This document shows, piece after piece, positions 1,256-36,012 of a stretch of DNA of 64,000 bases. Origin of the DNA: the human T2T-CHM13v2.0 reference genome, Homo sapiens. The DNA lies in NCBI RefSeq assembly GCF_009914755.1, contig NC_060934.1. One strand, 5' to 3'. The notes beneath the pieces were generated by a model that saw only the letters and a program-made list of their open reading frames with translations, made no database searches and was not told where the DNA came from. The position numbers were made by a program, and so were the translations under genes. The first letter of the stretch is position 1. Every line of letters starts with the position of its first letter.

Positions 1256-2290
<1,035 letters not shown>

Positions 2291-2489
2291 AAGATATCAT
2301 ATTAGTAAATTATATGCTAAAAGATAATGATAAAAGATGTTAATAATTTAAGAAGTATGATAATGAAAGTATTTAAAAATTTATAATGCAAAATTCATAT
2401 AGCAAAAAGTTATAACTATTTTGAACTTTTATGTAACTAACCAAATAGACTAAAAATATGTAATGCAAAAGTGGACAGAATTAAGAAGA

Positions 2490-2730
2490 GAAATTGCAAA
2501 AGAAACAAAAGGCATCCAGATTGGAACAGAAAAAGTAAAAGCATCTCTATTTGCAGATGACATGATCTTATATGTAGAAAATCCTAAGAATTTTGCACAC
2601 ACATACACACACACACACAATTAGAACCAATAAATGAATTCAACAGTGTTGCAGGATTCAAGATCAATATTAAAAAAAATCAATTGTGTTTCTATACTTT
2701 GTCAATCAACAATCAAAAAATGAAGAGAAA
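2490..2730 (+). mobile_element. Old L1 ORF2 reverse-transcriptase fragment
   Basis: Translates [27 protein letters not shown] (L1 RT FADD motif); interrupted by (CA)n. Confidence 0.85.
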
Positions 2731-3479
2731 TAGAAAAATATCTAGTGAATAAATACTAACCAAGAGAAAGTTGAAGTATGTAGATTATTCTCAGGAAAAA
2801 TATATATAAAATGCAATAAAAAGTAATTATTAGAGATAGAGAGATGACTACATAATGACAAATAGTTCAACTTACAGGAAAATTCTAATATCTGCCAGAA
2901 AATACTTGCTGGTGTAAAAGAATGTAGTTAACAAACTTGACTTATTAGGTATTTCTAGTACTCTTCACCAACAATTCGAGAATGCACATAATGTTGGACA
3001 ATAGTTAACTTATAGGTATGGATTTTCCTAATGTTAAACTATTGTTTATGTTAAATTGTTCACATAACAATTATTATACATTAATTATAACATAACAATT
3101 AATAGCATTAATTATAACAACAATTTAACATAGGTAAACAATAGTTTACATAATATTTCATATAAAGATAAATTCCTAATCAGTTAAAGACTTAAATTAA
3201 AAAGCCAAAACTTTGGGGAAATTTATAGAAATCTGGAAATATAAAACCTAACAAAACAAATGCAAATAGAAATGAGAAACTTTGATAGTTCTATAACTCT
3301 AAAGGAAATTAACCCAGTATTTAAACACAGACATACATACATCTTTAGGTTTTCATTTGCCTTGTTTATTTTTGACCACATTTTCTTTAATCTTTTTTTG
3401 TCTGTTTATTCCTGATGTGCTTTTTGTATACATCATACAGGAGTAGGATAAATATTACTAGTGCGTACTAGCATTTCTA

Positions 3480-3822
3480 CTTGTCTTTTCCCTTTTAAAC
3501 ACAAGGAAAATATTATTTCCCAGTCTCTAGTGTCATGTGACTAGCTCTGACTAATGAGTTATAATGAAAAGCTTTGTGTATTACTTTCAGTCCAACACAC
3601 TTCAGAGCCACTGTTCTAATTCTCTGTGTCCTAATCTAATGCTTTATGTTGAGGTGGAGGTGCTATAAGATAGAGGCAGCCTGGAATTCTTAGCCATTGC
3701 ACAGAATAGAAGTCAGCCTAAACATTATATGGAACAAGAATTGAACTTTTGTTAGGTTGCTGAAATGTTGTTTTTTTGTTCTTCCTGTAGCATTACTATT
3801 ACCTAGCCTATCCCGACTAATA
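3480..3822 (+). mobile_element. MaLR LTR (MLT1-type), degenerate
   Basis: TTCCCAG...TCATGTGACTAGCTCTG... ending CCTAGCCTATCCCGACTAATA. Confidence 0.55.
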
Positions 3823-5163
3823 GAAGATGATTCGCTTTTTACTCAATCTAAGAATGATTATCTTTTAATAATTTATTCTGTTTATATTTACTGACATTTC
3901 AGTTATGTTTGGTTTTAAGTCTCTAATTGTGGTTTATATTTTATATCTTCAGTACCTAGAAAAAAGCCTGGACATATCAGGTACCCAATAAATATTGTTG
4001 AAAAATTAATAAATTTTAAATGATATTCTTAAACATGTACTTCATGATTTTTTGACTTTGGACTTTCTAACCTGAAAGTAGAGAAGTTTCTTCTTTTCTG
4101 TCCTTTTCCCCACCAACCACTGAGTTTGGTGAAAAATACCATTGTGTTTTACATTGTTATAATTTATTCAGCTTACATTCTATTCTGTAGCCAAAATTCT
4201 TGCAGCTGCTTACATCTGTAGCTCTATTTTTAATGGATTCAATATTTTCTGTAAGCTCCTTTACCATGACTTCTCTATTTCTGAGGTCTTAATTTTGATT
4301 TATTTATTAGCTGAACTGATTTAATTGCCAAGAAGTTTTAGTTTTTTAAAAATAAGGACTTACATCTCTTTGCATCTTGTATCTTTGAAGATATGTGTGT
4401 AGTCTTCTTTTACTTTCTAAGAGAATTTTGTAGACATTGCTTCACTGTCTCCTGGCCTTCAGTGTTTTTGTATGACATCATTCCCCTATCTCTCCCTTTG
4501 TAGGTGCCTCCCCACTACCCTTTTTCTGGCTGGTTGTCCACAGTAGTCTTTATTTATGTTTGAAAATCAGTACCTTCATTAGCATATGTTGCATTTGTCA
4601 ATTTCTCCTTTTCAATGTGAATATTCAAGTCTTCATTTATTTAATAAACTTTTCTTTTCCAATTTTGTTTTTGAATTCTTTCCTGAGGGTTTTCTGAGGG
4701 CTTGGATAAAGAAATGTTTATTAGATTCTTTTCTTTAGCAACCCCAGTTATAGAAATGCTGAATTACATACATTATCTTCTGTATCTATTATCATCTTTT
4801 TAATTACTTTTATATATTTGCTTTTCTCCAGTTTATATTTAATATTTCCTTAAGGCTGACTTTTAAGTTTCTCTAAGTTCACTAGGAATGTTGACATTTT
4901 TGGCATGGGTTCGTTTTGGCATGGGCTCACTCAGCAAAAGTGAGGTTAGGAATGATAAACATAAGCCCAGGGAATTATTGGCTGCAGGTATTCTCTAGCT
5001 GCAGAGAAGGCTGTTAGATATGTACATGCCTCTGTGAGCTCCCTTCGGGAACTATGTAAGTGTAAACCCATAAGAATAAGGAATTGAGAGAGAAGACAAC
5101 AGAAAATGAGAGCTATCAGCTGTAGCAGCTGACCTAGAAGAGCAGATAAAGATAAGAAATATT

Positions 5164-5400
5164 GCCTATAATCCGAGCGCTTTGGGAGGCAAAGGCAGGA
5201 GGATAGCTTGAGGCCAGGAGTTCCAGACGAAACTGGACAACATAGTGAGACTTGTCTCTACAAAAAAAAAAATTTTTTTTAATTAGCCAAACATGGTGGC
5301 ATGTGTCTGTAGTCCTAGCTACTTGGGAGGCTGAGGACAGAGGATCACTTGAACCCAGGAATTCAAAGCTGCAGTGAGCTATGATTGTGCCAGAAGGCTG
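5164..5400 (+). mobile_element. AluJ, truncated
   Basis: GCCTATAATCC...GGAGGATAGCTTGAGGCCAGGAGTT...GCTATGATTGTGCCA. Confidence 0.85.
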
Positions 5401-5789
5401 CAGTGAACGATGATCCTGCCAGAAACTGGTAAGGCTCAGGAATGAAAGCACCAGGTACCTCTGAAAAACAGTGCCAGGTAGAAAGCTAAATGTAGAATGG
5501 GTTGAAAGTCTGTGTAAAGATTAGACCATCAGGTTACTCATCCACAGCCTCTGTAGTCAGATGACTGCTCCTCCTCTATCCCGGTAGGAAACAATATCTT
5601 CCCTTGAAGCAGTCAAGCTAAGGATGCCTGGGTTCAGGAGCACCAGACCCAGGTGAAGGCAAGGGGATGGGATTGCCAGTTTTCTTTGTTCAATTTTTTC
5701 TTTTAATGGATTGTAAATTATAATTCTACTTTTGTTAGTCTACTTATAACTCTTTCTATTACTTTGTTATTATTATTATTATTTTAATT

Positions 5790-5906
5790 TTTAGTCAGGA
5801 TGTGGAGGTTGACCAGGCTGGTCTCTAACTCCTGGGCTTAAGCCATCCTCCTGCCTTGGCCTCCCAAAGTGTTGGGATTACAGGTGTGAACCATTGCACC
5901 CAGCCT
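5790..5906 (-). mobile_element. Alu left monomer / FLAM
   Basis: CAGGCTGGTCTCTAACTCCTGGGCTTAAG...GTTGGGATTACAGGTGTGA. Confidence 0.8.
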
Positions 5907-6159
5907 GTTTATGACTCTTAGATTTTACAAAGATTCTTAAGGTTATCTTTTTGAAGCAATATCAGGAATATATATATGTGCTCTAGTTGATATAAGAAAT
6001 CTAATACATTCAAAAAACCTCTTTACTCCTCCTCTGCATTTCCCCAGCATCCTTTTCCTTCACAGCTACCGCCCATATTGATCATATCTGGGATTTGTGT
6101 TCCTGGTTTTGCTATTAAAAAAACAACAACAACAACAAAAAACAAAAACAAAAAAGACC

Positions 6160-6762
6160 TAGTAGATTGGTAGTTACCAGAAGCCGGGAAGGGTAGCAGG
6201 AGAGGGGATGAAGAGAAGTTGTTTGATGAGTACAAATATATGGTTTGATAGAAGAAATAAAACCTAGGTCAGGCGTGGTGGCTGTAATCCCAGCACTTTG
6301 GGAGGCCGAGGTGGGTGGATCACTTGAGGTCAGAAGTTCGAGACCAGCCTGGCCAACATGGTGAAACCCTGTCTCTGCTAGAAATACAAAAATTAGCTAC
6401 TAGAACTACAAATCGCTTGAACCTGGGAGGCCAAGGTTGCAATGAGCCGAGATTGCGCCACTGCACTCCAGCCTGCGTGACAGAGTGAGACTCCATCTGA
6501 AAAAAAGAAAAAAGAAAAGAAGAAATAAAACCTAGTGTTAGATAGATCAGTAGGGTTACTATAGTTTACAGTAATCTATTGGATATTTCAACATAGCTAG
6601 AAGAGATGAGTTTGAATAGTTTCAGCATAAAGAAATGACAGATATTTTAGGTGATAAATATCCCAAGTACATTGATTTGATCTTTACAAATTATATGAAT
6701 GTATTAAATTTTCACATGTACCCCAAAACTATGGACTTCTATTATGCATCAATTAAAAAAAA
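6160..6762 (+). mobile_element. L1MA 3' end, interrupted by Alu
   Basis: L1MA 3'UTR motifs (AGTAGATTGGTAGTTACCAGA...CACATGTACCCC...ATCAATTAAAAAA). Confidence 0.8.
6267..6517 (+). mobile_element. AluS with internal deletions
   Basis: 17-bp TSD AGAAGAAATAAAACCTA at 6250-6266 and 6518-6534. Confidence 0.9.
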
Positions 6763-7050
6763 CACGGGAAAAAGAGAAAATTGGGATTATTCCTTAAAAT
6801 TATAAATTATGTTTTTTCCGTGAAAAAAAAAAACCCAAACCTATTTAGTTTTAAGCAATAAAATATATCCTAATCACTTAGCTCACTGTAGCATTTTGTA
6901 GCTCATTTGAATGATTATTTGTCTGTTATCACATTTGGGGGTCAATATTTTTGTCTATCAAAACTTTAGAGATATTACTCTATCATCTTCCTGCATTGTT
7001 TTCTTCCAGCATTGCTGATAGGAAGCCTGATATGAATCTCATTCTAATTC

Positions 7051-8404
7051 CATATATATATATACACACACATATACACACACATATATATACACACACA
7101 TATATATACACACATATATACACATATATACACACATATATGTACATATGGAATATATATACATGTATATGTATATGGAATATATATACATGTATATGTA
7201 TATGGAATATATATACATGTATATGGAATATATATACATGTATATGTAATATATACATGTATATGTATACGTAATATATATACATGTATATGTATATGGA
7301 ATATATATACATGTATATGTATATGGAATATATATACATGTATATGTATACGTAATATATATACATGTATATGTATATGGAATATACATATATATACATG
7401 TATATGTATATGGAATATACATATATATACATGTATATGTATATGGAATATACATATATATATACATGTATATGTATATGGAATATACATATATATATAC
7501 ATGTATATGTATATGGAATATACATATATATACATGTATATGTATATGGAATATACATATATATACATGTATATGTATATGGAATATACATATATATACA
7601 TGTATATGTATATGGAATATACATATATGTATATATACACATATGTGTATATCTGGAATATATATATGGAATATATACATACGGAATATATACATACGGA
7701 ATATATACATACGGAATATATACATACGGAATATATGCATACGGAATATACATACATACGGAATATACATACATACGGAATATACACATACGGAATATAC
7801 ATACATACGGAATATATACATACGGAATATACATACATACGGAATATATACATATGGAATATACATACATACGGAATATATACATATGGAATATACATAC
7901 ATACGGAATATATACATATGGAATATACATACATACGGAATATATACATATGGAATATACATACATACGGAATATATACATATGGAATATACATACATAC
8001 GGAATATATACATATGGAATATACATACATACGGAATATATACATATGGAATATACATACATACGGAATATATACATATGGAATATACATACATACGGAA
8101 TATATACATATGGAATATACATACATACGGAATATATACATATGGAATATACATACATACGGAATATATACATATGGAATATACATACATACGGAATATA
8201 TACATATGGAATATACATACATACGGAATATATACATATGGAATATACATACATACGGAATATACACATGGAATATATACATACGGAATATACATACATA
8301 TGGAATATATACATATGGAATATACATACATATGGAATACACATATGGAATATACATACATATGGAATATATATGGAATATATACATATGGAATATATAT
8401 ATAT
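7051..8404. repeat. Compound AT-rich VNTR (TA/CA microsatellite, ~33-bp module, 32-bp 17+15 module)
   Basis: Units GGAATATACATATATATACATGTATATGTATAT and GGAATATACATACATAC+GGAATATATACATAT read directly. Confidence 0.97.
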
Positions 8405-28594: not shown

Positions 28595-29699
28595 ATCCTT
28601 ATGGTATAATGCGTGGATTTTTGGAAGAGTAAAACAAATGTAACATTTGCCAAGCACTCATTCTTGCCCAGCAGGGCTATAAGCTCTTCTCATGTATGTA
28701 ATAGAATTCTGTGAACAACCCTATATGGCAGGTACCATTATTATCTTCATTTCACAAATGAGAAAATTGAGACACTTCAGTAGTTTTCTCAAAGTCAGGC
28801 CATTAGTGAGTAGAAAAGCTGGGATACGAACCTAGGCTGTCCAGTTCCAGAGCAATAATCTGGTTTCACTTTCTGTGATGTAATTCCTGCCAGTTATCCC
28901 TCAAAAATACCAGTATCACTATGCAAACCATCACTTACTTGATCAGTCTTGCTGTGGAGAAAGGGATTGGGCTGTGCCTACACTTGGGGTGCAATGGGAG
29001 AGGACGCAATGGGAGGGGACAGTAGACTTGAGGAGTGGCACCAGTTCACTCCTGGGCTTTACATTCAATGGCATCACAGAATGGAGGAAATCATTGTGTG
29101 TGTGTGTACATAGAAAATGTCTAGTAGGTTTCACCCCAAACTGCAAACAGTATTTGCCCTTTAGGAGTGAAATGGATAATATAGAATTAGGAGATGTCTA
29201 AATTTTAATCCTATGCTGTTTGAAATTTTAAGTGAGGTTGTAGTCTTTGTAATGCTATTTTCAGAAACCCACAAAATATGGTGAAAAGAACTCTCTGGTC
29301 TGGTTTTCCCTTTTGTGAGGTAAATTGACTTAACTCTCCTTCAAGTGTCTTAGGTATTGAGAAGCGGTAGATAGATTATTTAATAATCCATTTCCCCAGG
29401 ATGGCACCTAGAGAAAAAGAAGATTATCCAGCCACCAAGAAATGCCCAGTTCCTCTATTTCGGATGAACCTGACTTAATCAGGAGTAGAAGGCACCTTTC
29501 TTCTTTTCAGAGTTACACAGGGGCCCTGGGTTTCCTGTTGACATGAAGATATTCGCATCCTTCACAAACAGCTTGTCATCTGTTCCACTTTCTGCTCTTA
29601 GAGGTGAAATAGGAAGTTTCTTCTTTCTTCAAAAGATTAAGGAAACCACTGTTTCCCTTTTGAAATGGGGAAAGATGTGTGACATCTTCATGCCCTCAG

Positions 29700-30152
29700 T
29701 GTCAGTCCTCTGAGCCTAAGCTAAGCCATAGCATCTCCTGTGACCTGCACTTATACGCCCAGATGGCCTGAAGTAACTGAAGAATCACAAAAGAAGTGAA
29801 AATGGCCTGTTCCTGCCTTAACTGATAACATTCCACCACAAAAGAAGTGAAAATGGCCGGTCCTTGCCTTAACTGATGACATTACCTTGTAAAATTCCTT
29901 TTCCTGTCTCATCCTGGCTCAAAAAGCTCCCCCACTGAGCACCTTGTGACCCCTACCCCTGCCAGCCAGAGAACAACCCCCTTTGACTGTAATTTTCCTT
30001 TACCTACCCAAATCCTATAAAACAGCCCCACCCCTATCTCCCGTCATTGACTCTCTTTTCTGACTCAGCCCGCCTGCACCCAGGTGAAATAAACAGCCTT
30101 GTTGCTCACACAAAGCCTGTTTGGTGGTCTCTTCACACGGACGTGCATGAGA
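29700..30152 (+). promoter_or_regulatory. 5' LTR (LTR7 family)
   Basis: TGTCAG..CATGAGA; two tandem ~49-bp repeats containing CACAAAAGAAGTGAAA; TATAAAA 30016-30022; GC/GT box GCCCCACCCC 30025-30034; AATAAA 30088-30093. Confidence 0.96.
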
Positions 30153-30154
30153 TT

Positions 30155-30172
30155 TGGTGCTGTGACTCAGAT
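30155..30172 (+). other. Primer-binding site for tRNA-His
   Basis: TGGTGCTGTGACTCAGAT versus expected TGGTGCCGTGACTCGGAT; both mismatches are CpG-decay type. Confidence 0.93.
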
Positions 30173-30298
30173 CGGGGGACCTCCCCTTGGGAGATCAATC
30201 CGCTGTCCTCCTGTTCTTTGCTCCATGAGAAAGATCCACCTACGACCTCGGGTCCTTAGACTGATCAGCCCAAGGAACTCATCTCACCAATTTCAAAT

Positions 30299-30307
30299 CG
30301 GGTAAGT
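30299..30307 (+). promoter_or_regulatory. HERV-H major 5' splice donor
   Basis: CGG|GTAAGT about 150 nt downstream of the 5' LTR. Confidence 0.8.
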
Positions 30308-30732
30308 GGCCTCTTTTTACTCTCTTCTCCAACCTCCCTCACTATCCCTCAACCTCTTTCTCCTTTCAATCTTGGCTCCACACTTCAACCTCTCCCTTCT
30401 CTTAATTTCAATTCTTTTCATTTTCTGGTAGAGACAAAGGAGACACATTTTATCCGTGGACCCAAAACTCCAGTGCCGGTCATGAACTTGGGAAGCCAGC
30501 CTTCCCATGGTGTTTAATCATTGTGGGGACACCTCTCTGATTATTCACCCACATTCGATTGGTGTCTGATCTCCACGGGGACGCCTACCTTGATCATTCA
30601 CCCACATTCCCTTGGTGGCAAGTCAATCGCGGGGACGCCTGCTTTGGCTGCTCACCCACGTTGCAGCCCAGGGCTGCTCCCCACCCCCTTTTCCATGTCT
30701 CTACCCTTCTCTTTAAACTTGCCTCCTTCACT

Positions 30733-32322
30733 ATGGGCAAACCTTCCACCCTCCATTCCTCCTTCTTCTCCCTTTGCCTGTGTTCTTAAGAACTCAAAAC
30801 CTCTTCAACTCCTGCCTGACCTGAAATCTAAGTGTCTTATTTTCTTCTGCAACACCGCTTGGCCCCAATACAAACTTGACAATGGCTCTAAATGGCCGGA
30901 AAATGGCACTTTTGATTTCTCCATCCTACAAGACCTAAATAATTTTTGTCAAAAAATGGGCAAATGGTGCCTTACATCCAGGCATTTTTTCACACTTCAT
31001 TCCCTCCCTAGTCTCTGTTCCCAATGCGATTCCTCCCAAATCCTCCTCCTTTCCCTCCCGCCTGTCCCCTCAGTCCCAACCCCAAGCGTCGCTGAGTCTT
31101 TCCAGTCTTCCTTATCTACAGACCCATCTGACCTCTCCCCTCCTCCCCAGGCTGCTCGTCGCCAGGCCAAGCTAAGTCCCAATTCTTCCTCAGCCTCCGC
31201 TCCTCTGTCCTATAATCCTTCTACCACCCCCCCTCCTCACACCCGGTCCGGCTTACAGTTTAGTTCTGCGACTAGCTCCTCCCCACCTGCCCAACAATTT
31301 CCTCTTAGAGAGGTGGCTGGAGCTGAAGGCATAGTCAGGGTACATGTACCTTTTTCTCTATCAGACCTCTCTCGGATCAGTCAGCATTTAGGCTCTTTCT
31401 CATCAGACCCCACTAAATGTATACAATAATTCCAATATCTAACTCTGTCCTGCAATTTAACCTGGAGTGACTTAAATGTCATCCTGACTTCTACCCTCTC
31501 CCCAGATGAACGGGAAAGAGTTTTTTCTCTAGCCCAATCTCACGCTGATAACAACCGGCTTCACGAGCCAGACCTCCAGGAAGGCGTTAGAGCAGTTCCC
31601 CGAGAGGATCCCCAGTGGAACTATCAGGCAGATTCCCCAGGTACAGCTAGGCGAGATTACATGATTTCCTGCCTAGTTGAAGGGCTTAAAAAGGCAGCTT
31701 ACAAAGCTGTTAATTATGACAAGCTTAAAGAAACTACCCAAGGTAAAGACGAAAACCCAGCCCAGTTCATGGCCTGCTTAGCAGCAACCTTTAGACGCTA
31801 TACTGCCCTAGACCCAGAAAGGCCAGAAGGCCGCCTTATTTTTAATATGCATTTTATCACCCAAACCACTCCTGACATTAGGAAAAAACTTCAAAAATTA
31901 GAATCTGGCCCTCAAACCCCACAACAGGAATTAATCAACCTCGCCTTCAAGGTGTACAATAATAGGAGGTAGCCAGACAGCAACACATTTCTGAGTTACA
32001 GCTACTTGCCTCCGCTGTAAGACAGCCCACAACCACGTCTCCAGCATACAAGAACTTCAGAACATCCAAGCCACAGCTCCCAGGGGCTCCTTCAAAACAT
32101 CCTCATGGGCCTTGCTTCAAATGCCAAAAGCCTGGCCACTGGGCCAAGAAATGCCCACAGCCCGGGATTCCTCCTAGGCCGTGCCGTGTCTGTGCGGGCC
32201 CCCACTGGAGGTCGGACTGTCCGACTCACATTGCCGCCGCTCCTAAAGCCCCTGGAGCCCAAATCCAATGTTCCTTGGCTGACTCCTTCCCAGATCTCCT
32301 CGGCTTAGCGGCTGAAGACTGA
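30733..32322 (+). pseudogene. gag: HERV-H gag, disrupted
   Basis: ATGGGC start at 30733; FFCNTAWPQYKLDNGSKWPENGT (MA-like); TQGKDENPAQF (MHR); zinc knuckle CFKCQKPGHWAKKC at 32113-32154 and CRVCAGPHWRSDC at 32182-32220; ends LLGLAAED-TGA; internal stops and frameshifts. Confidence 0.93.
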
Positions 32323-32670
32323 CGCTGCCTGATCGCCTCAGAAGCCCCCTGGACCATCACGCACACCGAGCTTCGGGTAACTCTTACGGTGGAGGATTCT
32401 CAGCCGTATGAAGACACCCTAGCTGGACGATCAGTTCTTGTTAAGAATCTGACCCCTCAAACTCTACAACCTCGATGGACCGGACCCTACTTAGTCATCT
32501 ATAGTACCCCGACTGCGGTCCGCCTGCAGGATCCTCCCCACTGGGTTCACAGTTCCAGAATAAAGCTATGTCCATTGGACAGCCAGCCTAATCCGTCCTC
32601 TTCCTCCTGGAAGTCACAAGTACTCTCCCCTACTTCCCTTAAACTCACTCATATTTCTGAAGAACAGTAA
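32323..32670 (+). pseudogene. pol: In-frame fusion of protease N-terminus with integrase C-terminus (pro-pol remnant)
   Basis: After the gag TGA the same frame reads RCLIASEAPWTITHTELRVTLTVE-DSQPYEDTLAGRSVLVKNLTPQTLQPRWTGPYLVIYSTPTAVRL (GPY/F motif); no protease catalytic, RT, RNase H or IN core sequence. Confidence 0.9.
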
Positions 32671-32963
32671 TAACCCTTATAAGCCTAATACATCCCTTCA
32701 TTCTATTAGGTCTGTTCATCCTTACCCTACTTTTGCAACAGGGCTTTATGCAGTCACCCCCACTACTTACACCGGGCCCCAAAAACTAGTCATCCCTACT
32801 CTCTTCTGTCTAGTCATACTCCTATTCTCCATTCTCAACTACTTATAAATGCCCTACTCTTGTTTACACTGCTGGTTTACACTGTTTCTTCAAGCCATCA
32901 CAGCTGATATCTCTTGGTGCTATCCCCAAACCGCCACTCTTAATTCCCTCTTAGAGTGGATAG

Positions 32964-34715
32964 ATGATCTTTGTTGGCAGGAGACCCTCCAATACTTTCA
33001 CCCTGATGAAGTTCTATTCTTTACTTTTATTCTTTACTTTTATACTCACTCTTATTCTCATTCCCATTCTTATGCCACCCTCTTCCTCTCTCCAGCTATC
33101 TCCACCATACTATCAACCTTACCCTTTCTCTCCTAGCCATTTCTAATCCCTCCTTAGCGAACAACTGCTGGCTTTGCATTTCCCTTTCTTCCAGCGCCTA
33201 CACAGCTGTCCCCGCCTTACATGCAGACTAGGCAACATCTCCTGTCTCCTTACACCTCCGAACTTCCTTTAACAGCCCTCACCTTTACCCTCCTGAAGAA
33301 CTCATTTGCTTTGTAGACAGGTCCAGCAAGACCTCCCCAGACATTTCACATCAGCAAGCTGCCACCCTCCTCCGCACTTACTTAAAAAATCTTTCTCCTT
33401 GTATCAACTCTACTCCCCCCATATTTGGACCTCTCACAACACAAACTGCTATTCCTGTGGCTGCTCCATTATGTATCTCTCGGCAAAGACCCACTGGAAT
33501 TCCCCTAAGTAACCTTTCACCTTCTCAATGTTCTTTACTCTTCCTCTCCAAAGCCCAACTACACACATCATTGAAACAATTGGAGGCTCCCAGCTCCATA
33601 TTACAGACAAGCCCTCTATCAATATGGGCAAACTTAAAAACATTAGCAGTAATTATTGCTTAGGAAGACACTTACCCTGTATTTCACTCCATCCTTGGCT
33701 ACCTTCCCCTTGCTTGTCAGAATCTCCTCCCAGGCCCTCTTGTTGTTTATTTATACCCAGTCCCGAAAATAGCAGTGAAATGTTGCTCGTAGACACTCAA
33801 CTTTTCTCATACACCATGAAAATCGAACCTCCCCCTCTACACAGTTACCCCATCAGTCCCCATTACAACCTCTGACAGCTGCCACCCTAGCTGGATCCCT
33901 AGGAGTCTGGGTACAAGACACCCCTTTCAGCACTCCTTCTCACCTTTTCACTTTGCATCTCCAGTTTTGCCTTGCACAAGGTCTCTTCTTCCTCTGTGGA
34001 TCCTCTACCTACATGTGTCTACCTGCTAATTGGACAGGCACATGCACACTAGTTTTCCTTACTCCCAAAATTCAATTTGCAAATAGGACCGAAGAGCTCC
34101 CCGTTCCCCTCCTGACACCGACACGACAAAAAAGAGTTATTCCACTAATTCCCTTGCTTGTCAGTTTAAGACTTTCTGCCTCCACTGTTGGTCTCGGTAC
34201 TGGAATAGCAGGCATTTCAACCTCTGTCACCACCTTCCGTAGCCTCGCTAATGACTTCTCTGCTAGCATCACAGACATATCACAAACCAGTCCTCCAGGC
34301 TCTTTAGCTGCAGTTGTCCTCCAAAACCGCCGAGGCCTTGACTTACTCACTGCTGAAAAAGGAGGACTCTGTATATTCTTAAATGAAGAGTGTTGTTTTT
34401 ACCTAAATCAATCTGGCCTGGTGTATGACAACATAAAAAAAACTCAAGGATAGAGCCCAAAAACTTGCCAACCAAGCAAGTAATTACACTGAACCCCCTT
34501 GGGCACTCTCTAATTGGATGTCCTGGGTCCTCCCAATTCTTAGTCTTTTAATACCTATTTTTCTCCTTCTTTTATTCGGATGTTGTATCTTCCGTTTAGT
34601 TTTTCAATTCATCCAAAACCGTATCCAGGCCATCACCAATCATTCTATACAACAAATGTTTCTTCTAACAACCCCACAATATCACCCCTTACCACAAAAT
34701 CTTCCTTCAGCTTAA
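32964..34715 (+). pseudogene. env: HERV-H env, full span, disrupted
   Basis: MIFVGR..MKFYSLLL start, CWLC at ~33106-33117, furin-like RQKR, immunosuppressive domain LQNRRGLDLLTAEKGGL at 34319-34369, CX6CC (CIFLNEECC), TM anchor, ends PQNLPSA; several frameshifts and stops. Confidence 0.95.
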
Positions 34716-34863
34716 TCTCTCCCACTCTAGGTTCCCACACCGCCCCTAATCCCGCTCAAAGCAGCCCTGAGAAACATCGCCCATTATCTCTCCATACCAC
34801 CCCCAAAAATTTTCGCCGTCCCAACACTTTACCACTATTTCATTTTATTTTTCTTATTAATAT

Positions 34864-34876
34864 AAGAAGACAGGAA
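34864..34876 (+). other. Polypurine tract
   Basis: AAGAAGACAGGAA immediately before the 3' LTR. Confidence 0.85.
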
Positions 34877-35329
34877 TGTCAGGCCTCTGAGCCCAAGCTA
34901 AGCCATCTCATTCCCTGTGACCTGCACTTATACACCCAGATAGCCTGAAGTAACTGAAGAATCACAAAAGAAGTGAAAATGGCCTGTTCCTGCCTTAACT
35001 GATGACATTCCACCACAAAAGAAGTGAAATTGGCCGGTCCTTGCCTTAACTGATGACATTACCTTGTAAAATTCCTTTTCCTGGCTCATCCTGGCTCAAA
35101 AAGCTCCCCCACTGAGCAACTTGTGACCCCCACCCCTACCAGCCAGAGAACAACCCCCTTTGACTGTAATTTTCCTTTACCTACCCAAATCCTATAAAAC
35201 AGCCCCACCCCTATCTCCCTTCGCTGACTCTCTTTTCAGACTCAGCCCGCCTGCACCCAGGTGAAATAAACAGCCTTGTTGCTCACACAAAGCCTGTTTG
35301 GTGGTCTCTTCACACGGACGTGCATGAAA
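34877..35329 (+). promoter_or_regulatory. 3' LTR (LTR7 family)
   Basis: TGTCAGGCCTCTGAGCCC..CATGAAA; AATAAA at 35265-35270; about 19 substitutions versus the 5' LTR by hand count. Confidence 0.96.
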
Positions 35330-36012
35330 CTCAGAAGGATTATATCCATTTTCTCTTGTCTTCCCCACAAACGAGTGAGACGAAGAACAATCCCAGGGAT
35401 TTGGCTACTGAAGGCTGGAAAAGGATGGCAGGGCCCATTCATACTCAGCCATCACTCATGCACAAGGGCAGCTCCCAGCCCTCAGCTCTGGAGGGATGGG
35501 GAGGGCTCGTCCTCCTGGGCTGTGCTAGGAATCTGCTTGGTACCTTGGAGGACTCCCTCAAGCTGAGTAAAAGAGCAGTGAGTGTTCCTTCCATTTTTGG
35601 TAGAGAATTAAAAATGAAGTACTTGAACAAGCTGGACATTTGAGTTCCACTTGTCTTGCAATGTTGAAGACTCCTAATTTAGAAACATGGATCTAGGGGA
35701 CAAATGATCACACAACTTGCAATGGAATAGCATGCAATTTTTTTTCCAACAATCACAGTTAAAATAAAATCAGTATAAAGCTGCCAATTTTTCTTTCTTA
35801 GAAAAAACTGTTATTTTCTTTAGAGCATATTCTTTCTCTTTTGTGGGGAGGAATGTCCTTCGACTTATGAAATTAATCATAACTAATGTATGAAATTAAT
35901 TTCATAAGAGGAAGGACATAAGAAACATGAAATTTGCAAGAGCTGTTTTAGGTCCTAAGGAGTTGACAGTGAACAAAACACAGAACATCTCTAAGCATGC
36001 AGAGCAAATTCT

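What the first reader, a model, noticed from the sequence alone, without database searches (positions are those of the whole stretch)
32341..32670. HERV-H provirus whose pro-pol looks spliced out: a re-integrated gag-env subgenomic RNA
Seen in sequence: the protease N-terminus (..ELRVTLTVE) joins in frame at 32395/32396 (GTGGAGG|ATTCTCAG) to the integrase C-terminal GPY/F region (DSQPYEDTL..WTGPY). Both LTRs, the PBS, the PPT and a 5-bp TSD are present, and there is no poly(A) tail. Recalled knowledge, to be verified: in full-length HERV-H the left side continues GTAAGT (VEGK), a consensus donor, and the right side is preceded by a pyrimidine tract ending CCAG, an acceptor. Inference: the missing ~3 kb is an intron removed at the RNA stage, and the spliced RNA was reverse-transcribed and integrated by retroviral RT/IN in trans, not by L1. 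As I recall, spliced HERV-H proviruses have been reported, mostly using the major 5' donor. Here the donor is internal to pro and keeps leader, gag and env, which could define a non-autonomous gag+env sub-lineage dependent on pol-retaining copies.
Basis: partly seen in the sequence, partly recalled or inferred. Interest (0 to 1): 0.85.

Follow-up and report, generated by a model that had tools for sequence, protein, structure and literature searches.

The report
Re-integrated spliced HERV-H provirus lacking pol
This is a broken human endogenous retrovirus (HERV-H) copy made from a viral RNA whose protease-polymerase part had been spliced out before it was copied back into the genome, a neat fossil of a known process.

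Summary
A 5,630-bp HERV-H provirus lies at window 29700-35329, with two 453-nt LTRs, a tRNA-His primer site, a polypurine tract and the 5-bp duplication CTCAG, and no poly(A) tail. It lacks about 2,988 nt between 32395 and 32396.

- **Donor side:** 22 of 28 pol-retaining copies continue GAGG|GTAAGT at the left boundary.
- **Acceptor side:** 28 of 28 copies have a CTAAT branch site, a pyrimidine tract and CAG immediately before the right boundary. The missing piece is therefore an exact GT...AG intron, with 1 nt of ambiguity.
- **What was lost and kept:** the intron held nearly all of protease, RT, RNase H and the integrase core. The join is in frame and keeps the integrase C-terminal domain.
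- **Second locus:** a provirus on chr4 carries the same junction with a different duplication (GGGCC) and different flanks.
- **Same donor elsewhere:** two chr1 loci join the same donor to an acceptor 7 nt before the 3' LTR. One of them is a poly(A)-tailed retrocopy of a doubly spliced RNA.

Best reading: an alternatively spliced RNA that kept the leader was reverse-transcribed and integrated in trans, like the MLV SD'/SDARE element. The "gag+env sub-lineage" idea is weak. Only two copies exist, and they do not group together in the 3' half. This is a new member of a known kind, of moderate interest.

The parts
29695..29699 (+). 5' target-site duplication CTCAG
   Evidence: Same 5 bases at 35330-35334
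29700..30152 (+). 5' LTR (453 nt, TGTCAG...CATGAGA)
   Evidence: Direct repeat found. Full alignment to the 3' LTR: 434 of 453 identical, no gaps
30155..30172 (+). Primer binding site, tRNA-His type (TGGTGCTGTGACTCAGAT)
   Evidence: 16 of 18 bases equal the PBS-tRNA-His primer printed in PMC3253121. Sequence
30299..30307 (+). Candidate major leader splice donor, CGG|GTAAGT, boundary 30301|30302
   Evidence: The only GTRAGT left in the internal region. GGTAAG is kept in 4 of 4 aligned copies. Its use as the major donor is recalled or inferred, not shown here
30733..32322 (+). gag, broken by at least two frame changes and one in-frame stop, ending at TGA 32320-32322
   Evidence: ORF pieces. Pfam Gag_p30 (E 9.7e-27) and zf-CCHC (E 2.4e-7). 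TGA at this place in 29 of 30 loci
32323..32395 (+). First 24 codons of protease, in the gag frame, ending at the used splice donor
   Evidence: In the pol-retaining copy L062 the same frame continues into Pfam RVP (E 1e-11). Relatives continue GAGG|GTAAGT
32395..32396 (+). Exon-exon junction, with 1 nt (G) of ambiguity
   Evidence: The missing segment is 2,988 nt in L062
32396..32670 (+). Integrase C-terminal domain and tail, 91 codons plus stop, in frame with the protease stub
   Evidence: Pfam MLVIN_C E 8e-11. PDB 2m9u, MLV integrase C-terminal domain, E 1.7e-10
32964..34715 (+). env, full length in extent but broken into at least five frame pieces
   Evidence: ORF pieces. Pfam TLV_coat on three pieces, best E 1.3e-39
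34864..34876 (+). Polypurine tract AAGAAGACAGGAA
   Evidence: Lies directly before the 3' LTR
34877..35329 (+). 3' LTR (453 nt)
35330..35334 (+). 3' target-site duplication CTCAG

Best explanation
A full-length, env-bearing HERV-H element was transcribed. An alternative splice joined a consensus donor at codon 24/25 of protease (GAGG|GTAAGT) to a strong acceptor just before the integrase C-terminal domain. This removed about 3 kb: nearly all of protease, RT, RNase H, and the integrase N-terminal and core domains. The donor lies far downstream of the leader, so the spliced RNA kept the R-U5, primer site, whole leader, gag, env, polypurine tract and U3-R. It could therefore be packaged, reverse-transcribed with both strand transfers, and integrated by proteins supplied by pol-retaining elements. 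The result is the LTR-flanked, 5-bp-duplicated provirus at 29700-35329.

Shown: the exact intron-shaped gap, the retroviral ends, the second locus, and use of the same donor in other genomic cDNA fossils. Inferred: packaging through the retained leader, trans-complementation, and that the acceptor is the normal env acceptor.
For: 1. Boundaries. 22 of 28 anchored relatives read GTAAGT at the left edge. 28 of 28 read a pyrimidine tract plus CAG at the right edge, and 27 of 28 have a branch motif. The chance estimate is about 3e-6.
2. Lost segment. In L062 it holds RVP, RVT_1, RT_RNaseH_2, RNase_H and rve. The retained part holds MLVIN_C.
3. Retroviral ends. Complete LTRs, primer site, polypurine tract, 5-bp duplication, no A-tail.
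4. Second locus. The same junction occurs at chr4 (C4:95354682) with duplication GGGCC and unrelated flanks. It is about 91% identical across the junction.
5. Same donor in other fossils. 300 copies keep the 20-mer before the donor: 273 followed by G and 27 by another base. Of the 27, 2 are this junction, 22 are point-mutated donors and 1 has an indel. The other 2 join the donor to ACAGGAA plus the 3' LTR, after a site that ends AAGAAG in ordinary copies.
6. One of those two (L070) is a 5'-truncated retrocopy. It reads leader exon, then a 102-nt exon (32294-32395 equivalent), then the 3' LTR up to the polyadenylation site, followed by an A-rich tail. That is a fossil mRNA in which this donor was spliced.
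7. Precedent. The MLV SD' RNA is spliced from an internal donor to the env acceptor, keeps Psi, is packaged, reverse-transcribed and integrated (PMC10496198, passages).
Against: - No RNA data were available, so use of this donor-acceptor pair in living cells is not shown.
- No primate genome was available, so the orthologous-site test was not done.
- Whether the acceptor is the normal env acceptor is inferred only. It is the nearest strong acceptor-like site upstream of the env ATG, 568 nt away.
- Only two such proviruses exist, so the form spread very little.
- 1 nt of ambiguity at the junction allows a formal non-splice reading.
Confidence: 0.88

Rival explanations
1. A full-length provirus first integrated here. 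A spliced HERV-H cDNA then converted it by homologous recombination, removing the intron after integration.
For: cDNA-mediated conversion by a spliced retroelement is documented for yeast Ty, as cited in PMC11998498 (passage). The chr4 copy is mosaic. Its gag groups with the chr12 copy L032, and its 3' half with the chr11 copy L005. The gag of L005 is only about 83.5% identical to the chr10 copy's gag, to which the chr4 gag is about 92% identical.
Against: Conversion is not needed to explain the data. Both loci have ordinary LTR pairs and duplications. Conversion would have had to happen twice. It still needs the same spliced cDNA.
Confidence: 0.05
2. The gap is a deletion unrelated to splicing: a reverse-transcriptase template jump or a genomic deletion. 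The deleted element later gave rise to the chr4 copy, or the reverse.
For: Large deletions are common in HERV-H. PMC3253121 section 7 names six commonly deleted regions. 1 nt (G) of shared sequence exists at the breakpoints.
Against: Both breakpoints fall exactly on a GTAAGT and on a branch site, pyrimidine tract and CAG, with chance about 3e-6. The same donor edge is used in two other cDNA fossils with a different downstream partner that also ends in AG. The two junction copies are not sisters in the 3' half.
Confidence: 0.04
3. It is an L1-made processed pseudogene of a spliced HERV-H mRNA.
For: Such retrocopies exist. L070 on chr1 is one. [quoted passage not shown]
Against: The chr10 and chr4 copies have a complete U3-R-U5 at both ends, a 5-bp duplication and no A-tail.
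Confidence: 0.01

Closest known systems
MLV SD' RNA / SDARE (splice donor-associated retroelement) and its P50 protein
   Same: Both are gammaretrovirus-type elements. In both, a donor inside the gag-pro-pol reading frame is joined to an acceptor in the 3' part of integrase. The spliced RNA keeps the leader and is found integrated with LTRs. The join is in frame and keeps the integrase C-terminal part: the last 116 residues in MLV (PMC10496198 passages) and 91 codons here.
   Different: The MLV donor lies in capsid, so P50 is made without readthrough. Here the donor lies 24 codons past the gag TGA, so a fusion would need stop-codon readthrough. Whole gag is kept. This copy is a germline fossil with all genes broken. 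No RNA, packaging or protein data exist for it.
Spliced HERV-H sequences in human genomic DNA (Goodchild, Freeman and Mager 1995, Virology 206:164)
   Same: Same family and same principle: a spliced HERV-H RNA copied back into the genome. This is as described in PMC11998498 (passage) and cited in PMC3758188 and PMC3590776.
   Different: According to PMC11998498, that form came from the common multiply deleted HERV-H and used a cryptic splice site. I could not read the paper itself, so I cannot say whether the pro donor or this acceptor was among its sites. The copy here derives from an env-bearing, pol-complete source.
HERV-K(HML-2) locus 10q24.2 (ERVK-17) and intron-deleted rem copies of mouse Mtv
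   Same: These are proviruses whose internal gap matches an intron. They are interpreted as spliced RNA reverse-transcribed and integrated the retroviral way (PMC3590776 passage; PMC11998498 passage).
   Different: They are betaretroviruses. The intron lies within env (the rec/rem intron), not across pro-pol.
L1-made retrocopies of HERV RNAs (HERV-W processed pseudogenes; HML-2 2q32.1)
   Same: They come from retroviral RNA, sometimes spliced (PMC3590776 passage). One HERV-H example was met here, L070 on chr1.
   Different: Those end in poly(A) after R and lack the 5' U3 and 3' U5. The chr10 element has complete LTRs and a 5-bp duplication.

Membership tests
HERV-H (gammaretrovirus-like ERV with tRNA-His primer site) | tRNA-His primer binding site directly after the 5' LTR | tested here: met
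   30155-30172 matches 16 of 18 bases of the published PBS-tRNA-His primer (PMC3253121; sequence)
HERV-H (gammaretrovirus-like ERV with tRNA-His primer site) | Gamma-type gag, integrase and env domains, and many close copies in the human genome | tested here: met
   Gag_p30, zf-CCHC, MLVIN_C and TLV_coat. First-look candidates numbered 1,159, 1,051 and 496, with 40 scored each
Re-integrated spliced retroviral RNA (SDARE-like provirus) | Gap boundaries coincide exactly with a 5' and a 3' splice site in intron-retaining relatives | tested here: met
   GTAAGT in 22 of 28 and CAG after a pyrimidine tract in 28 of 28. 1-nt ambiguity only
Re-integrated spliced retroviral RNA (SDARE-like provirus) | Complete LTRs at both ends, short retroviral duplication, no poly(A) | tested here: met
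   The chr4 copy likewise, with duplication GGGCC
Re-integrated spliced retroviral RNA (SDARE-like provirus) | Same junction at independent integration sites | tested here: met
   2 loci, chr10 and chr4, with different flanks and duplications
Re-integrated spliced retroviral RNA (SDARE-like provirus) | The splice is seen in RNA | tested here: inconclusive
   No RNA data. Indirect support for the donor only: L070 is an A-tailed retrocopy whose 102-nt internal exon ends at this donor
Re-integrated spliced retroviral RNA (SDARE-like provirus) | Spliced RNA keeps a working packaging signal and is packaged | not testable with these tools
   The leader 30173-30732 is retained. Its function was not assayed
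MLV P50-type Gag-integrase C-terminal fusion | In-frame join of the upstream frame to the integrase C-terminal domain | tested here: met
   One open frame 32323-32670 across the junction. The intron is 2,988 nt = 996 codons in L062
MLV P50-type Gag-integrase C-terminal fusion | Donor inside gag, so the fusion is read without stop-codon readthrough | tested here: not met
   The donor is 24 codons after the gag TGA
MLV P50-type Gag-integrase C-terminal fusion | Acceptor is the normal env acceptor | tested here: inconclusive
   It is the nearest strong acceptor-like site upstream of the env ATG in L062. No RNA or readable paper confirms it
L1-made processed pseudogene | Poly(A) tail after R, no 3' U5 or 5' U3, long duplication | tested here: not met

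The most novel reading that the evidence does not exclude
HERV-H regularly made a leader-retaining, SD'-like subgenomic RNA from a conserved donor in protease. On readthrough of the gag TGA, this RNA gave a Gag-protease stub-integrase C-terminal-domain fusion. The fusion would include a tail that aligns with the MLV integrase tail, which I recall as the BET-protein binding peptide. An internal-donor, in-frame integrase C-terminal accessory product would then be an old, shared trait of murine and primate gammaretroviruses rather than an MLV oddity. The two non-sister junction copies would record two separate splicing events.
Probability: 0.15. Interest if true: 0.7.

Novelty: new member of a known kind. 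Interest (0 to 1): 0.5.

Why it matters
The element fixes at base resolution an alternative HERV-H splice, from a protease donor to an acceptor before the integrase C-terminal domain. It shows that such an RNA went through the whole retroviral cycle in the primate germline at least twice, using enzymes from other copies. That gives a natural primate counterpart to the experimentally defined MLV SDARE. It gives exact coordinates for searching RNA data from pluripotent cells, where HERV-H is highly expressed. It also gives annotators a simple explanation for a pol-less, env-bearing HERV-H form. It does not change how HERV-H biology is understood.

Tried and rejected
- **Sub-lineage idea.** In the 3' segment 32396-34060 (24 rows) the chr4 copy is sister to the intron-retaining L005 (100/99). 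The chr10 copy lies outside an 18-row clade. The AU test rejects chr10+chr4 as a clade at p 1.6e-9.
- **gag tree.** In gag 30720-31641 (20 rows) chr10, chr4 and the intron-retaining L032 form a 100/100 clade, and the AU test does not reject chr10+chr4 (p 0.16). Sites where chr10 and chr4 alone share a non-majority base number 1 in gag and 0 in the 3' segment. Two splicing events, or one event followed by recombination, both remain open. The loci in these trees were those the searches ranked nearest to the chr10 copy. L025 and L036 were dropped as duplicates of L062.
- **Other partners of the acceptor.** The 21-mer after the acceptor is preceded by AG in 55 copies. It is preceded by a non-A base plus G only in the 2 junction copies.
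- **Leader donor survey.** The 22-mer before the leader donor is followed by a non-G base in 15 copies, and 0 of the 15 are joined to this acceptor. Eleven are mutated donors, 2 are joined inside the 3' part of gag, and 2 are followed by an inverted primer site and U5.
- **Env of L032.** I tried to get the env part of L032's provirus. The stretch 2.2-5.5 kb past its donor has no HERV-H match.
- **LTR subtype.** Not assigned, because no reference library was available.
- **Unavailable sources.** Papers not held: Jern 2005 and Wilkinson 1990 and 1993. Goodchild 1995 and Lindeskog and Blomberg 1997 were seen only through citing papers.
- **Literature searches.** No report of this junction turned up. 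One search failed on a malformed term.

Full report
**What is there.** The window holds a 5,630-bp HERV-H provirus at 29700-35329.
- Two LTRs of 453 nt each, at 29700-30152 and 34877-35329. They align without gaps and are identical at 434 of 453 positions (first seen as a repeat).
- A target duplication CTCAG on both sides, at 29695-29699 and 35330-35334.
- A primer binding site at 30155-30172. It equals 16 of 18 bases of the published PBS-tRNA-His primer (PMC3253121, passage).
- A polypurine tract at 34864-34876.
- No A-tail.

Translation pieces carry Gag_p30, a zinc knuckle, MLVIN_C and three TLV_coat matches. All genes are broken. gag has at least two frame changes and one stop. env is split into at least five frame pieces.

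**The junction.** At 32395|32396 the sequence reads GTGGAGG|ATTCTCAG. The frame 32323-32670 is open across it. It starts right after the gag stop TGA at 32320-32322, in the gag frame, and TGA stands there in 29 of 30 loci examined. Twenty-four codons of protease are followed by 91 codons that match the MLV integrase C-terminal domain (Pfam MLVIN_C E 8e-11; PDB 2m9u E 1.7e-10, residues 8-85 of 89).

**Is the gap an intron?** The window's own assembly could be searched.
- *Left edge.* The 196 bases left of the junction gave 40 scored matches out of 1,051 candidates. Twenty-nine non-window loci were examined on both strands and 28 could be anchored. After ...GGAGG they continue GTAAGT in 22, GTGAGT in 1, GCAAGT in 2, ATAAGT in 1, TTAAGT in 1 and GTTAAG in 1. 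They then run on into the protease active-site region.
- *Right edge.* Twenty-eight non-junction loci were taken from the 301-base query across the junction. All 28 have CAG directly before the boundary. All 28 have 14 or 15 pyrimidines of 17 at -20..-4. Twenty-seven have a yTnAy motif, CTAAT with its A at -21.
- *Shape of the gap.* The missing piece begins GT and ends AG, with consensus context at both ends and a single base (G) of ambiguity.
- *Content.* In the pol-retaining chr1 copy L062 it is 2,988 nt, or 996 codons. It carries RVP, RVT_1, RT_RNaseH_2, RNase_H and rve.
- *Chance.* The internal region of that copy has 2 GTRAGT sites and 19 acceptor-like sites in 7,283 nt. A random deletion landing on both has a probability of about 3e-6.

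**How many copies carry the junction?**
- Of the 40 matches scored for the 301-base query, 2 span the junction: the window itself and chr4, C4:95354552-95354837, at 90% identity. The other 38 start at the junction or within six bases after it.
- A 120-base query gave the same 2 of 40.
- A degenerate 35-mer with up to 3 mismatches found the same 2 places and no control hits.
- The exact 30-mer with up to 3 mismatches found only the window.

These are lower bounds, because only the best candidates are scored and diverged copies could be missed.

**The chr4 element.** It spans L061 2248-7638 and has its own LTR pair, 460 of 469 aligned positions identical. Its duplication is GGGCC and it shares no flank homology with chr10. 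It has an extra gap in the 3' part of gag (31641-32236 equivalent), about 276 extra bases in the leader, and a different central LTR region. It is an independent integration, not a segmental duplication.

**Independent evidence that the protease donor is a real splice donor.** The 20-mer before the donor is followed by G in 273 copies and by another base in 27. I looked at all 27.
- 22 are point changes of the donor's first base or bases: ATAAGT 12, TTAAGT 6, CTAAGT 2, ATGAGT 1, AGAAGT 1.
- 1 has a small insertion.
- 2 are the chr10 and chr4 junctions.
- 2, both on chr1, join the donor edge to ACAGGAA plus the 3' LTR.

In ordinary copies ACAGGAA is preceded by ...TTATTAATATAAGAAG. That gap therefore also runs GT...AG. 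A direct search for this second junction found exactly those 2 places. A third hit with 3 mismatches is an ordinary polypurine tract.

- L072 keeps gag upstream and has a complete 3' LTR.
- L070 is different. It reads about 41 bases of the end of the leader exon, then a 102-nt exon equal to window 32294-32395, preceded in ordinary copies by ...CTCCTTCCCAG. It then reads ACAGGAA and the 3' LTR only as far as AATAAACAGCCTTGTTGCTCA, followed by an A-rich tail. That is the form of an L1-made retrocopy of a doubly spliced mRNA, and its internal exon ends at this very donor.

**Mechanism.**
- *Shown:* an exact intron-shaped gap, complete retroviral ends, two independent integrations, and use of the donor in other cDNA fossils.
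- *Inferred:* the donor lies far downstream of the leader, with the candidate major donor at 30301|30302. The spliced RNA therefore kept the whole leader, where gammaretroviral packaging signals lie, and could be packaged. An ordinary env mRNA could not.
- *Consistent with this:* none of the 15 copies with a disturbed leader-donor edge is joined to this acceptor. Among 57 copies that keep the 21-mer after the acceptor, the only 2 with a foreign upstream partner use the protease donor. These numbers are small.
- *Trans-complementation:* the element has no RT, RNase H or integrase core, so enzymes must have come from other copies.
- *env acceptor:* that the acceptor is the normal env acceptor is inferred. 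It is the nearest strong site upstream of the env ATG at 32964, 568 nt away.
- *Loss of env expression:* in the re-integrated copy the branch site and pyrimidine tract are gone. Weaker acceptor-like sites remain at 32813 and 32954.

**One event or two?** In the 3' segment 32396-34060 (24 rows, careful tree) chr4 is sister to the intron-retaining chr11 copy L005 (100/99). It sits inside a 10-row and an 18-row clade, each 100/99, and chr10 lies outside both. Holding chr10 and chr4 together costs 73.9 log-likelihood units (p-AU 1.6e-9). In gag (20 rows) chr10, chr4 and the intron-retaining chr12 copy L032 form a 100/100 clade, and the AU test does not reject chr10+chr4 (p 0.16). Only 1 site in gag and 0 in the 3' segment are shared by chr10 and chr4 alone. 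So either the splice happened twice in related sources, or once followed by recombination with co-packaged full-length RNA. The abstract of PMC2925334 (search listing) says MLV SD' RNA is co-packaged with genomic RNA mainly as heterodimers. The trees used only the loci the searches ranked closest to chr10, and different proviruses on the two sides.

**Age.** LTR divergence (K2P) is 0.043 for chr10 and 0.0195 for chr4. With recalled neutral rates of 1.3-2.1e-9 per site per year, this gives roughly 10-17 and 5-7.5 million years. LTR conversion and rate uncertainty make these rough.

**Comparison with what is known.**
- *MLV SD'/SDARE* is the closest working model. An internal donor is joined to the env acceptor. 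The RNA keeps Psi and is packaged, reverse-transcribed and integrated. It encodes P50, the N-terminal part of Gag fused in frame to the last 116 residues of integrase (PMC10496198, abstract and passages). Here the donor is in protease, past the gag stop, so a comparable fusion would need readthrough.
- *HERV-H itself.* Re-integrated spliced copies were reported by Goodchild et al. 1995. I saw this only through PMC11998498, which says they derive from the common deleted form and a cryptic site, and through citations in PMC3758188 and PMC3590776.
- *HML-2 10q24.2* and the intron-deleted rem copies of Mtv are further cases.
- *HERV-H splicing.* Alternative splicing was reported by Lindeskog and Blomberg 1997. 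I saw this only through PMC9631305, without site positions.
- *Searches.* Seven full-text searches found no description of this junction. The older HERV-H papers that map splice sites and deletion forms were not readable, so prior description cannot be excluded.

**Verdict.** The sub-lineage idea is not. The element is a new, cleanly documented member of a known kind.

Noticed in passing
L070 = G000:C1:25746927-25749947 (minus strand), oriented positions about 1376-1980: An A-tailed, 5'-truncated retrocopy of a doubly spliced HERV-H RNA. It reads the end of the leader exon, then a 102-nt exon (equal to window 32294-32395), then ACAGGAA plus the 3' LTR up to the polyadenylation site. It defines an internal exon bounded by an acceptor at the end of gag and by the protease donor.
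   Followed up: partly
L072 = G000:C1:53315511-53318531, junction at locus 1520|1521: A HERV-H copy in which gag and the protease stub are joined at the same donor to the last 7 bases before a complete 3' LTR. The join recreates a purine-rich run (GGAGGACAGGAA) where the polypurine tract was. It lies in the region where PMC3253121 describes two neighbouring HERV-H elements at 1p32.3. Identity with those was not checked.
   Followed up: partly
L102 (G000:C1:83899145-83899215) and L105 (G000:C8:99715537-99715607), minus strand: The leader-donor edge is joined directly to sequence from the 3' part of gag, near window 32033 and near 32233. For the first, 2 of 21 ordinary copies have AG before that point and 18 have AA. 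These may be other spliced or deleted forms.
   Followed up: partly
L094 (G000:C1:233075190-233075260) and L107 (G000:C16:66369321-66369391): The leader sequence up to the leader donor is followed by the reverse complement of the primer binding site and U5. The same inverted arrangement occurs at two loci and is unexplained.
   Followed up: no
window 29559-30152: The RefSeq enhancer feature given by the hub ends exactly at the last base of the 5' LTR (30152) and starts 141 bases upstream of it. The annotated enhancer is therefore essentially this LTR plus flank.
   Followed up: no
L061 (G000:C4:95350000-95359900), provirus 2248-7638: The chr4 junction copy is mosaic. Its gag groups with the chr12 copy L032 and its 3' half with the chr11 copy L005. 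The gag of L005 is only about 83.5% identical to the chr10 copy's gag, to which the chr4 gag is about 92% identical. Its central LTR region differs from the chr10 LTR (75-82% identity there).
   Followed up: partly
L032/L066 (G000:C12:88350434-88357600): The chr12 copy closest to chr10 in gag keeps at least 1.5 kb of pol after the donor. No HERV-H sequence is found from 2.2 to 5.5 kb past the donor, so that provirus is truncated or interrupted.
   Followed up: no
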